DNA of 300 nucleotides from Escherichia coli (GTDB taxonomy: Bacteria; Pseudomonadota; Gammaproteobacteria; Enterobacterales; Enterobacteriaceae), in the NCBI RefSeq assembly GCF_003334355.1, contig NZ_QOWP01000117.1; one strand, given 5' to 3'. Position 1 is the stretch's first letter; each line of letters starts with the position of its first letter. The notes below the pieces were generated by a model. The model worked only from the letters and a program-made list of their open reading frames with translations, had not been told where the DNA came from and made no database searches. The translations under genes were made by a program, and so were the position numbers. Positions 2-299 of this stretch are shown here, piece after piece.

Positions 2-77
2 TGGTGGGTCGTGCAGGATTCGAACCTGCGACCAATTGATTAAAAGTCAACTGCTCTACCAACTGAGCTAACGACCC
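2..77 (-). tRNA. lysZ: tRNA-Lys (anticodon UUU), 76 nt including encoded 3' CCA
   Basis: Minus-strand read (77->2) is GGGTCGTTAGCTCAGTTGGTAGAGCAGTTGACTTTTAATCAATTGGTCGCAGGTTCGAATCCTGCACGACCCACCA. It folds as a canonical cloverleaf: 7-bp acceptor stem GGGTCGT/ACGACCC, D-stem GCTC/GAGC, anticodon stem GTTGA/TCAAT (one G-U), anticodon loop CTTTTAA with anticodon TTT, 5-nt variable loop, T-stem GCAGG/CCTGC with loop TTCGAAT, discriminator A, then CCA. It matches the E. coli tRNA-Lys sequence as I recall it. The symbol lysZ is tentative: it assumes the E. coli K-12 operon order and relies on my unverified recollection that lysY and lysZ are 146 bp apart, which would make this the downstream copy. 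Confidence 0.96.
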
Positions 78-93
78 ATATGGGTGTTACCTG

Positions 94-120
94 AAAGATT
101 TCTACTCGGAACCAATCTTT
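94..120 (-). other. AU-rich hairpin (7-bp stem, 13-nt loop) immediately after the CCA-AUUUUAA of the tRNA 3'-end remnant
   Basis: In RNA sense: AAAGAUU-GGUUCCGAGUAGA-AAUCUUU. The arms are exact reverse complements (plus strand aaagatt 94-100, aatcttt 114-120). The large loop and AU-rich stem make stability marginal. Confidence 0.3.
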
Positions 121-143
121 AAAATTGGTGGCTCGTGCAGGAT
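119..143 (-). repeat. Truncated tRNA-Lys 3'-end remnant: 3' half of T-stem, 3' acceptor strand, CCA and 7-nt downstream flank, duplicated inside the spacer
   Basis: Plus strand 119-143 (ttaaaattggtggctcgtgcaggat) versus 217-241 (ttaaaactggtgggtcgtgcaggat): 25 nt with 2 mismatches, at 125 (t vs c) and 132 (c vs g). Similarity stops abruptly on both sides (144 g vs 242 t; 115-118 vs 213-216 unrelated). The 5' partner strands needed for acceptor and T stems are absent upstream, so this is not a functional tRNA. Confidence 0.75.
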
Positions 144-197
144 GACTCGCTTCGCTCGCCCTACGGGCCGTTGCTGGCGTAACGTTATCCTTCACGC

Positions 198-220
198 TTA
201 ACATCTGAGTTTGATGTTAA
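198..220 (-). other. AU-rich hairpin (8-bp perfect stem, 7-nt loop) beginning 3 nt after the CCA of the upstream tRNA-Lys
   Basis: In RNA sense: UUAACAUC-AAACUCA-GAUGUUAA. The arms are exact reverse complements (plus strand ttaacatc 198-205, gatgttaa 213-220). There is no GC-rich stem and no following U-tract, so it is not a canonical intrinsic terminator. Confidence 0.4.
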
Positions 221-223
221 AAC

Positions 224-299
224 TGGTGGGTCGTGCAGGATTCGAACCTGCGACCAATTGATTAAAAGTCAACTGCTCTACCAACTGAGCTAACGACCC
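224..299 (-). tRNA. lysY: tRNA-Lys (anticodon UUU), 76 nt including encoded 3' CCA
   Basis: Positions 224-299 are identical over all 76 nt to positions 2-77 (checked base by base), so the same cloverleaf and TTT anticodon apply. On the transcribed minus strand this is the upstream copy. The symbol lysY is tentative for the same reason as above; if the source is not E. coli K-12-like, the paralog name could differ. Confidence 0.96.

What the first reader, a model, noticed from the sequence alone, without database searches (positions are those of the whole stretch)
94..220. Parallel architecture: each CCA-(G/A)UUUUAA motif is followed by an AU-rich hairpin
Both the genuine 3' end of the upstream tRNA and the internal 3'-end remnant are followed by the same (G/A)UUUUAA flank and then a short AU-rich stem-loop (198-220 and 94-120), although the two hairpin sequences are unrelated to each other. 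Conserved structure without conserved sequence, placed at fixed distance from a CCA, suggests a role in 3' trailer processing, for example presenting a single-stranded AU-rich RNase E site or pausing 3' exonucleases, rather than termination.
Basis: inference. Interest (0 to 1): 0.35.

Follow-up and report, generated by a model that had tools for sequence, protein, structure and literature searches.

The report
Known tRNA-linked repeat in lysine-tRNA spacer
The region is the spacer between two identical lysine tRNA genes of E. coli and holds one copy of an already catalogued tRNA-linked repeat (RtT family); one of the two reported hairpins is real and conserved, the other is not, and the 'parallel design' is mostly a by-product of how the repeat duplicates the tRNA's 3' end.

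Summary
The window is the lysY-lysZ spacer of the E. coli lysT tRNA operon, with the genes on the minus strand. The spacer holds one RtT-type tRNA-linked repeat (Rfam RF00391, 47.8 bits against a cut-off of 45).

**Confirmed:**
- CCA-(G/A)UUUUAA occurs twice.
- The hairpin at 198-220 is real: dG -6.0, z -4.3, pair probability 0.97. In 25 relatives 91% of cells pair, with compensatory changes and 28 G.U against 1 A.C.

**Not confirmed:**
- The hairpin at 94-120 has dG -2.5, z 0.04 and pair probability 0.00. In 25 relatives 57% of cells pair against 56% in shuffles.
- A different, conserved hairpin pairs the copied CCA with a downstream UUGGU (129-111).

**Why the motif repeats:**
- K-12 and ATCC 8739 differ at lysW-valZ by exactly one 98-nt block: hairpin, core and 3'-end copy.
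- So what follows the second CCA is the old tRNA trailer.
- AUUUUAA there varies within E. coli (K-12 has AUCUUAA).

Outside terminators and this repeat subtype, sequences after these CCAs fold no better than shuffles. Published work shows RNase P and exonucleases process this operon, with RNase E only a backup. The finding is ordinary and already known. The role of the real hairpin remains inferred.

The parts
224..299 (-). lysY, tRNA-Lys(UUU), the upstream gene; its genuine CCA is at 226..224
   Evidence: ARAGORN; Rfam tRNA 79.2 bits; operon annotation
126..223 (-). One 98-nt RtT-type tRNA-linked repeat block: hairpin 1, core, and a copy of the tRNA 3' end
   Evidence: Rfam RtT hit at 292..126, 47.8 bits against a cut-off of 45. 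The K-12 and ATCC 8739 lysW-valZ spacers differ by exactly such a 98-nt block.
217..223 (-). GUUUUAA directly after the genuine CCA. G223 and U222 are unpaired and U221 forms a wobble pair. UUAA (220..217) is the base of the hairpin-1 stem.
   Evidence: R-U-U-U is conserved in 25 relatives
197..221 (-). Hairpin 1: 8 Watson-Crick bp (220..213 with 205..198) plus the U221.G197 wobble, and a 7-nt loop. It is the conserved 5' stem-loop of one subtype of the repeat.
   Evidence: dG -6.0, z -4.3; pair probability 0.97; 91% paired in 25 relatives, 6 pairs with double changes; 28 G.U against 1 A.C; predicted by RNAalifold
187..196 (-). 5' strand of the repeat's closing helix (CGUGAAGGAU), pairing with 143..134 of the 3'-end copy
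   Evidence: RNAalifold consensus; the pairs are invariant in 12 spacers. The same arrangement appears in the Rfam RtT structure line.
158..184 (-). Two inner core hairpins: CGUUAC/GCAACG at 184..179 with 174..169, and GC.CC/GGGC at 168..165 with 161..158. The window allele has a weakening G->A change at 180.
   Evidence: one G-C to A-U covariation; allele comparison
126..143 (-). Copy of the last 18 nt of tRNA-Lys (AUCCUGCACGAGCCACCA), with one mismatch, G132, relative to the tRNA
   Evidence: direct repeat D2; allele comparison
111..129 (-). CCA-pairing hairpin: ACCAAUUU (129..122) with AGAUUGGU (118..111), loop UAA. The second AUUUUAA (125..119) lies in its 5' arm and loop.
   Evidence: dG -5.2; pair probability 0.85; 86% paired against 13-52% with slid partners, 7 cells with double changes; predicted by RNAalifold
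94..120 (-).
   Evidence: z +0.04; pair probability 0.00; 57% paired against 56% in shuffles; absent from the RNAalifold consensus
78..110 (-). Ancestral lysY trailer and lysZ 5' leader (UCCGAGUAGAAAUCUUUCAGGUAACACCCAUAU), conserved in sequence across genera with or without a repeat upstream
2..77 (-). lysZ, tRNA-Lys(UUU), the downstream gene

Best explanation
**What it is.** The window is the 146-nt spacer between lysY and lysZ. [quoted passage not shown]

**The repeat block.** The spacer contains one copy of the RtT-type tRNA-linked repeat. This is a 98-nt block with three parts:
1. An A/U-rich stem-loop that starts 2-3 nt after the tRNA's CCA (hairpin 1).
2. A G+C-rich core.
3. A copy of the last 18 nt of the tRNA, ending in CCA, which pairs back onto the 5' strand of the core.

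**How the parallel arises.** The block is gained or lost as a unit, most simply by recombination between the tRNA 3' end and its copy (inferred). The sequence that originally followed the tRNA therefore now follows the copy. This is why two CCAs are each followed by an A/U-rich trailer start.

**The two structures differ in kind.** Hairpin 1 is a conserved RNA module of the repeat. After the copied CCA, the supported structure is a hairpin in which the CCA itself pairs with a downstream UUGGU. That feature also occurs after genuine tRNA-Lys genes in other genera.

**Processing, from published experiments.** RNase P cuts at each tRNA 5' end, working 3' to 5' along the transcript. The whole spacer is then a 3' trailer removed by RNase II/PNPase and finally RNase T. 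RNase E cuts in the spacer only as a backup.

**Role of hairpin 1 (inferred, about one chance in three).** It may act as a folding insulator and 5' cap of the repeat RNA. It would keep only the short ACCA-RU(U) linker single-stranded between the acceptor stem and the repeat. That linker is where the tRNA and the spacer RNA must be separated.
For: **Identity.**
- tRNA calls; 100% match to E. coli chromosomes and the operon annotation.
- Rfam RtT is above its cut-off here and in every long spacer of the operon.

**Block structure.**
- The K-12 lysW-valZ spacer (149 nt) equals the ATCC 8739 spacer (51 nt) plus 98 nt of hairpin, core and copy.
- A Pseudocitrobacter contig has the post-copy segment directly after a genuine tRNA-Lys, as do 9 other genera.

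**Hairpin 1.** Energy, probability, covariation and G.U asymmetry support it. It always sits 1-3 nt after a genuine CCA and 0-1 nt before the core.

**CCA-pairing hairpin.** Supported. A helix of 5 bp or more involving C74/C75 occurs in 25% of 192 distinct tRNA-Lys trailers, against 6% in shuffles.

**Processing.** Agrawal, Mohanty and Kushner 2014, PMC4176162.

**By analogy.** The annotated RttR RNA of tyrT runs from the 8th nt after the tyrV CCA to the CCA of the first copy.
Against: - No end-mapping data exist for this spacer, and the TIER-seq supplements held no lys entries. The role of hairpin 1 is therefore inference only.
- Most covariation cells come from related sequences. I chose the hairpin-1 set by homology, which favours both arms.
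- AUUUUAA-like starts follow both CCAs in several genera. Some selection on an A/U-rich start, for example as an RNase E site, cannot be excluded.
- The direction of the 98-nt event, gain or loss, is not resolved.
Confidence: 0.62

Rival explanations
1. Each CCA-(G/A)UUUUAA plus a downstream A/U-rich hairpin is a 3'-trailer processing signal. It would present a single-stranded RNase E site or pause 3' exonucleases.
For: - AG|UUU and AA|UUU fit RN|WUU (PMC5222698).
- R-U-U-U after CCA is conserved in the 25 hairpin-1 relatives.
- RNase E cleaves somewhere between lysY and lysZ when RNase P is inactive.
- Hairpin 1 is conserved.
Against: - The second hairpin is not better than shuffles, has probability 0.00 and shows no covariation.
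- Most of the first AU-rich flank is paired in the stem.
- The second flank is AUCUUAA or AUCUCCA in other E. coli.
- rne-1 alone gives no new intermediates and the processed fraction stays at 0.89 against 0.95.
- Identical tRNA-Lys genes lack the hairpin.
- There is no general hairpin enrichment after these CCAs.
Confidence: 0.15
2. End protection of a stable spacer RNA. Cutting in the ACCA-RUU linker would release an RtT-like RNA of about 100-110 nt. Its 5' end would be capped by hairpin 1, blocking 5'-end sensing by RNase E. Its 3' end would be the copied CCA, trimmed like a tRNA end or held in the CCA-pairing hairpin. This would be analogous to RttR from tyrT.
For: - RttR is annotated from 8 nt after the tyrV CCA to the copy's CCA.
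- Both terminal structures are conserved.
- 5' stem-loops are known to protect RNAs (introduction of PMC3985628).
- Hairpin 1 travels with the repeat rather than with the tRNA.
Against: - Northern blots with lysY-lysZ spacer probes reported only large precursors and few intermediates in wild type.
- No stable species is annotated here.
- The repeat is dispensable at lysW-valZ in ATCC 8739.
Confidence: 0.15
3. The hairpins are DNA-level palindromes, serving as recombination or protein-binding sites that move the repeat, rather than RNA structures.
For: The repeat is gained or lost as a block and forms tandem arrays of up to 10 copies in Photorhabdus.
Against: 28 G.U pairs against 1 A.C on the tRNA-sense strand show strand-specific, RNA-level constraint. 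The indel boundaries coincide with the CCA-ended direct repeats, not with the palindrome.
Confidence: 0.03

Closest known systems
RtT RNA / tRNA-linked repeats of the tyrT operon (Rfam RF00391; rttR, Bosl and Kersten 1991 as cited in PMC3318445)
   Same: - It lies in a tRNA operon downstream of a tRNA.
- It has a homologous G+C-rich core.
- It ends in a copy of the 3' end of the neighbouring tRNA including CCA, and the 5' strand of the core pairs with that copy.
- It scores above the family cut-off.
   Different: - The 3'-end copy is of tRNA-Lys, not tRNA-Tyr.
- The unit is 98 nt rather than 178 nt.
- Copies are single and sit between tRNA genes rather than in a 3.14-fold tandem array after the last gene.
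- The leader between CCA and core is a clean 8-9 bp hairpin that tyrT lacks.
- No released RNA has been shown.
RNase E sites just 3' of CCA in E. coli tRNA precursors (RN|WUU motif; PMC5222698, PMC3985628)
   Same: An A/U-rich R-N-U-U-U run lies directly after CCA in a short single-stranded linker between structured domains.
   Different: For this operon RNase E is dispensable when RNase P is active (PMC4176162). No cleavage site has been mapped here. Much of the motif is base-paired.
RNase P-driven 3'-to-5' processing of the lysT and valU operons (Agrawal, Mohanty and Kushner 2014, PMC4176162)
   Same: This is the same transcript. The 146/147-nt lysY-lysZ spacer is the one probed there.
   Different: In the parts I read (abstract, the two lysT results sections, part 1 of the discussion, and term searches) that study does not describe the repeat, hairpin 1 or the CCA-pairing hairpin. 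It leaves the basis of directionality open.
Pairing that sequesters the 3' RCCA of pre-tRNA, as for 5' leader-RCCA pairing that inhibits RNase P (PMC9433436, abstract seen)
   Same: The CCA, genuine in other genera and copied here, is drawn into a helix with nearby sequence.
   Different: The partner is the 3' trailer, not the 5' leader. An effect on RNase P has not been tested. In this window the sequestered CCA belongs to the copy, not to a tRNA.
Spacer-derived regulatory RNAs such as 3'ETS-leuZ (Lalaouna 2015, as cited in PMC5222698)
   Same: It is a by-product of tRNA operon processing with its own conserved structure.
   Different: There is no evidence here for Hfq binding, sRNA complementarity or accumulation.

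Membership tests
RtT / tRNA-linked repeat (RF00391) | Covariance-model score at or above the curated gathering score | tested here: met
   47.8 bits against 45 in the window. Scores are 54.4-60.2 for the other copies of the operon and 133-137 for tyrT.
RtT / tRNA-linked repeat (RF00391) | Ends in a copy of the 3' end of the adjacent tRNA, including CCA | tested here: met
   126..143 matches the last 18 nt of tRNA-Lys at 17 of 18 positions. The 25-nt direct repeat is 92% identical.
RtT / tRNA-linked repeat (RF00391) | 5' strand of the core pairs with the 3'-end copy and encloses inner hairpins | tested here: met
   The RNAalifold consensus of 12 spacers shows this. The closing-helix pairs are invariant, so they are uninformative for covariation. 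One inner pair covaries.
RtT / tRNA-linked repeat (RF00391) | Released as a discrete stable RNA (as RttR is) | not testable with these tools
   Only the tyrT copy is annotated as an ncRNA. Northern data for this spacer report precursors only.
RNase E processing site at a tRNA 3' end | RN|WUU sequence in a single-stranded segment | tested here: inconclusive
   The sequence fits at both CCAs. Only G223 and U222 are clearly unpaired after the genuine CCA, and after the copy the motif lies in a hairpin arm and loop.
RNase E processing site at a tRNA 3' end | rne-dependent cleavage in vivo at that position | not testable with these tools
   The literature shows cleavage somewhere in the spacer only when RNase P is inactive, and the site is unmapped. 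The TIER-seq supplements have no lys entries.
Intrinsic terminator | G+C-rich stem followed by a U tract on the transcribed strand | tested here: not met
   No terminator-like site lies on the minus strand. Hairpin 1 is A/U-rich and is followed by GCGUG.
   z +0.04; pair probability 0.00; 57% paired against 56% in shuffles and 61% with partners slid by -1.
Conserved RNA structure (hairpin 198-220) | Folding better than shuffles, and pairs kept or compensated in relatives | tested here: met
   z -4.3. 91% paired against 34-45% slid, with 10 cells changed on both sides against 2.6 in shuffles. All 25 variants have p<=0.05.

The most novel reading that the evidence does not exclude
The two supported structures may not be passive. 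Hairpin 1 and the CCA-pairing hairpin could cap the 5' and 3' ends of a lysine-operon RtT-like RNA that survives processing and has a function of its own. Alternatively, CCA-pairing trailers (UUGGU or GGUGG 4-9 nt after CCA, found in a quarter of enterobacterial tRNA-Lys trailers) could hide the RCCA from RNase P until the downstream tRNA is removed. That would help impose the unexplained 3'-to-5' order of RNase P processing of this operon.
Probability: 0.1. Interest if true: 0.5.

Novelty: already known. Interest (0 to 1): 0.2.

Why it matters
As it stands it matters little. The element is a catalogued repeat in one of the best-studied tRNA operons, and the proposed shared processing signal does not hold up.

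Two by-products could be useful.

- **A subtype of the repeat.** One subtype carries a strictly placed stem-loop between the tRNA's CCA and the repeat core. The stem-loop is conserved as RNA across at least ten enterobacterial genera.
- **CCA-pairing trailers.** Many tRNA-Lys trailers, and their copies, pair with the CCA itself. If either structure affects how RNase P, RNase E or the exonucleases handle the transcript, it would give a concrete handle on two open questions:
  - why this operon is processed strictly from its 3' end;
  - what RtT-type repeats are for.

Tried and rejected
- **In vivo RNase E sites.** I searched the nine held supplements of the Salmonella TIER-seq paper for lysT/W/Y/Z/Q and valT and found no entries. 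Term searches of one RNase E direct-entry paper found no mention of this operon. The query to a second paper failed on a malformed term, so that paper was not searched.
- **The original RtT paper.** Bosl and Kersten 1991 is not held. What I say about RttR rests on the K-12 annotation and sequence and on citations in PMC3318445 and a 2024 preprint.
- **Terminator reading.** Rejected. There is no G+C-rich stem with a U tract on the transcribed strand. The one terminator-like hit is on the plus strand and is the complement of a core hairpin.
- **Coding reading.** Rejected. A 54-aa ORF (204..40, minus strand) starts at an AUG in the 3' arm of hairpin 1 and runs into lysZ. That AUG is not conserved.
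- **DNA-palindrome reading.** Rejected on the G.U against A.C asymmetry.
- **A general rule that CCA is followed by a hairpin.** Rejected for tRNA-Lys and its copies in this sample. However, valU (ACUAC-UUUAU-GUAGU) and the lysT-valT copy (CUAAC-AUA-GUUAG) do have short hairpins right after CCA.
- **CCA-pairing as a universal cause of 3'-to-5' RNase P order.** Weakened. The valU and valX trailers lack it, and so does lysY itself.

Full report
**Where the window comes from.**
- ARAGORN and Rfam find two identical tRNA-Lys(UUU) genes on the minus strand, at 299..224 and 77..2.
- The 300 bases match E. coli chromosomes at 100% identity. [quoted passage not shown]
- Rfam's RtT family (RF00391) matches 292..126 on the minus strand at 47.8 bits, above its cut-off of 45.
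- Every long spacer of the operon passes that cut-off. The four tyrT-operon copies score 133-137 bits.

**Checking the observation.**
- On the minus strand, CCAGUUUUAA is at 226..217 and CCAAUUUUAA at 128..119. That is 2 matches against 0.00 expected.
- Both belong to a 25-nt direct repeat, 92% identical, made by the tRNA 3' end and its internal copy.
- The hairpin at 220..198 is real: 8 bp, 7-nt loop, dG -6.0 kcal/mol, z -4.3. Its pair probability is 0.97 whether I fold the spacer alone, with either tRNA, or all 300 nt.
- The hairpin at 120..94 is not supported: dG -2.5, z +0.04, with 99 of 200 shuffles at least as good. Its pair probability is 0.00-0.01.
- The bases AAGAUU are used instead by a hairpin that pairs ACCAAUUU (129..122) with AGAUUGGU (118..111). 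That hairpin has probability 0.85.
- In this structure the copied CCA is itself paired, and AUUUUAA lies in the arm and loop.
- The UUAA of the first flank is the base of the hairpin-1 stem. 'Flank, then hairpin, at a fixed distance' therefore does not describe either site accurately.

**Relatives.** One scan of the species-representative genome collection used the pattern GTCATCCTGCACGANCCACCA.

**Hairpin 1 in relatives.**
- In 66 cases the RtT core (CGUGAAGGAU...) follows a genuine tRNA-Lys CCA at 24-29 nt. With the exact core pattern used, it never follows a copied CCA.
- The 24-29 nt leaders fall into two kinds.
  - Twenty-five distinct leaders are hairpin-1 relatives. They come from Escherichia, Salmonella, Citrobacter, Klebsiella, Enterobacter, Kluyvera, Pluralibacter, Silvania, Superficieibacter and others. 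All fold better than shuffles: mean dG -7.3 against -1.2, every p<=0.05.
  - Thirty-eight others mostly do not fold well (16% with p<=0.05). Most of them carry GGUGG 8-9 nt after CCA.
- On a MAFFT alignment of the 25 relatives, 91.2% of cells pair, against 34-45% with partners slid by 1-3 columns.
- Six of the ten pairs have changes on both sides, in 10 cells against 2.6 in shuffles.
- Departures from Watson-Crick pairing are 28 G.U against 1 A.C. The constraint therefore acts on the tRNA-sense RNA, not on the DNA palindrome or the antisense strand.
- Among seven E. coli alleles the 25 nt of the hairpin are invariant, while the post-copy segment varies.
- The second copy in K-12, at lysW-valZ, keeps the stem and changes the loop.
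- Caveat: I picked the set by homology and the sequences are related, so the shuffle counts are not probabilities.

**The second site in relatives.**
- I aligned 25 distinct post-CCA segments of the lysY-lysZ type, 16 after copies and 9 after genuine tRNA-Lys genes.
- The five outer pairs of the CCA-pairing hairpin give 85.6% paired, against 13-52% slid. Seven cells changed on both sides, and the covariation score is 0.160 against 0.059.
- Clear examples of kept pairing:
  - ACCCAU/AUGGGU in Citrobacter sedlakii;
  - CCACUU/AAGUGG in Enterobacter cloacae;
  - CACCAUCU/AGAUGGUG in another Citrobacter.
- RNAalifold on 12 whole spacers, with no structure supplied, predicts hairpin 1, the closing helix between the core's 5' strand and the copy, two inner hairpins and the CCA-pairing hairpin.

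**Why the motif is repeated.**
- The K-12 lysW-valZ spacer is 149 nt and that of ATCC 8739 is 51 nt. K-12 equals ATCC 8739 plus one 98-nt block inserted directly after the CCA.
- That block begins GUUUUAACAUC... (a hairpin-1 copy) and ends ...CCACCA. The same 98 nt span window positions 223..126.
- A Pseudocitrobacter contig has a 47-nt Lys-Lys spacer. It is simply CCA followed by AUUUUAAAUUGGUAACCGAGUAAAAAUCUUUCAGGCAACACCCAGAU, which is the post-copy segment of our window directly after a genuine tRNA.
- Salmonella, Citrobacter, Enterobacter and others show the same arrangement.
- So the block is gained or lost as a unit, and what follows the second CCA is the ancestral tRNA trailer.
- The second AUUUUAA is not conserved even in E. 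coli. K-12 and SJ7 have AUCUUAA, and another strain has AUCUCCA.
- The exact window allele is in 722 of 5,426 complete genomes and the exact K-12 allele in 926.
- All three alleles keep the CCAAU...AUUGG helix. The U/C change swaps U.G for C-G.

**Is there a general rule that a hairpin follows a CCA?** I tested distinct 30-nt segments from these loci.

| Class | n | Mean dG | Shuffled dG | Fraction p<=0.05 |
|---|---|---|---|---|
| Terminators, after genuine tRNA-Lys CCA | 17 | -14.66 | -3.98 | 1.00 |
| Terminators, after copied CCA | 29 | -12.61 | -4.23 | 0.79 |
| Hairpin-1 leaders, after genuine CCA | 27 | -7.35 | -2.14 | 0.93 |
| Other RtT leaders, after genuine CCA | 40 | -3.31 | -2.67 | 0.07 |
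| Other trailers, after genuine CCA | 108 | -2.46 | -2.12 | 0.13 |
| Non-terminator segments, after copied CCA | 120 | -1.86 | -1.88 | 0.10 |

- Only terminators and hairpin-1 leaders fold better than shuffles. There is no general rule.
- Pairing with the CCA itself is enriched. A helix of at least 5 bp involving C74/C75 occurs in 25% of 192 distinct genuine trailers. Shuffles give 6%, with a maximum of 11% in 200 rounds.

**What is known about processing.** Agrawal, Mohanty and Kushner (2014, PMC4176162) showed the following.
- The operon is one transcript of about 1,100 nt.
- RNase P separates the tRNAs, starting at the terminator and moving 3' to 5'.
- The lysine pre-tRNAs then carry 2-150 nt trailers. 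The authors propose, citing earlier work, that these are removed by RNase II and PNPase and finished by RNase T.
- rne-1 alone produces no new intermediates. The processed fraction is 0.89 against 0.95.
- RNase E cuts in the long spacers, including lysY-lysZ, when RNase P is inactive. The sites were not mapped there.
- The authors leave the basis of the directionality open. They note that RNase P cleaves poorly when a long 3' trailer is present.

The Salmonella RNase E consensus is RN|WUU (PMC5222698). AG|UUU and AA|UUU after the two CCAs fit it, so a backup RNase E cut there is plausible but not shown. The paper's supplements hold no lys entries.

**Comparison with tyrT.**
- In K-12 the annotated RttR RNA starts at the 8th nt after the tyrV CCA and ends at the CCA of the first repeat copy.
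- The tyrT unit shares the core and the pairing of its 5' strand with the 3'-end copy. Its leader between CCA and core is long and lacks a clean hairpin.
- The lysine-type unit is therefore a compact relative of a known family, with a subtype-specific 5' stem-loop.

**Mechanism, and what is shown against inferred.**
- Shown here:
  - the identity of the locus;
  - membership in RtT;
  - the reality and RNA-level conservation of hairpin 1 and of the CCA-pairing hairpin;
  - the lack of support for the second hairpin as drawn;
  - the block indel;
  - the polymorphism of the second flank.
- Taken from the literature: the RNase P and exonuclease pathway, and the backup role of RNase E.
- Inferred:
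  - recombination between the tRNA end and its copy moves the block;
  - hairpin 1 serves as a folding insulator and 5' cap, leaving only ACCA-RU(U) single-stranded between the acceptor stem and the repeat.
- I give the overall reading 0.62. Within it, the specific role of hairpin 1 gets about one chance in three.

**Verdict.** The object is an already catalogued repeat in a well-studied operon, so interest is low (0.2). The one reading with some novelty is that the supported structures cap a functional spacer RNA, or that CCA-pairing trailers help order RNase P cleavage. I put that at about 0.1.

Noticed in passing
L122 1384-1509 (+), K-12, downstream of the lysQ terminator; also L128 about 660-700 after lysV: A further Rfam RtT hit (46.7 bits) lies just past the operon terminator. 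The sequence there contains an inverted tRNA T-arm-like piece (AAGATTCGAACCTGCAGCA), and the same piece follows the lysV terminator.
   Followed up: no
L004, L057, L058 (Photorhabdus): These loci carry tandem arrays of 5-10 copies of the tRNA-Lys 3'-end copy with a period of about 175 nt. That is far more than in Escherichia.
   Followed up: no
L122 620-768 against L001 2372-2422: The RtT block is present at lysW-valZ in K-12 and absent in ATCC 8739. This is a presence/absence polymorphism of exactly 98 nt within one species.
   Followed up: yes
window 180 and 132 (minus strand): The window allele carries G->A in the core hairpin (CGUUAC instead of CGUUGC, giving an A.C mismatch). It also carries C->G in the 3'-end copy. 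Other E. coli alleles show further changes in the acceptor part of the copy while keeping CACCA.
   Followed up: partly
window 78-110 (minus strand) and aligned segments in A2: The block CCGAGUAAAA...UUUCAGGYAACACCC upstream of lysZ is conserved in sequence across many genera, with or without a repeat. Its role as a 5' leader is unknown.
   Followed up: no
L001 2083-2110 and 2800-2826, and many loci: RtT leaders that lack hairpin 1 carry GGUGG, the complement of the tRNA's CCACC, 8-9 nt after the genuine CCA. In several of them it sits in the loop of an AUCGNU...ANCGAU hairpin that starts right at CCA+1.
   Followed up: partly
L109 and L016, L077: Apparent recombinant spacers occur. Hairpin 1, whole or partial, is joined directly to the ancestral trailer without the core, or a hairpin-1-like stem follows a copied CCA.
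   Followed up: no
L086: A contig labelled as a Bacteroidales metagenome-assembled genome holds the enterobacterial tRNA-Lys copy pattern. This is probably a binning contaminant.
   Followed up: no
L128 308-351 (valU-valX spacer, K-12): The valU trailer begins with a 5-bp hairpin, ACUAC-UUUAU-GUAGU, immediately after CCA. The lysT-valT copy is likewise followed by CUAAC-AUA-GUUAG. Short hairpins abutting CCA recur in this operon family, although no general enrichment was found.
   Followed up: partly
window 169-184 (+): The only terminator-like hit in the window is on the plus strand. It is the complement of an RtT core hairpin followed by a weak T-rich tail, and is probably meaningless.
   Followed up: no
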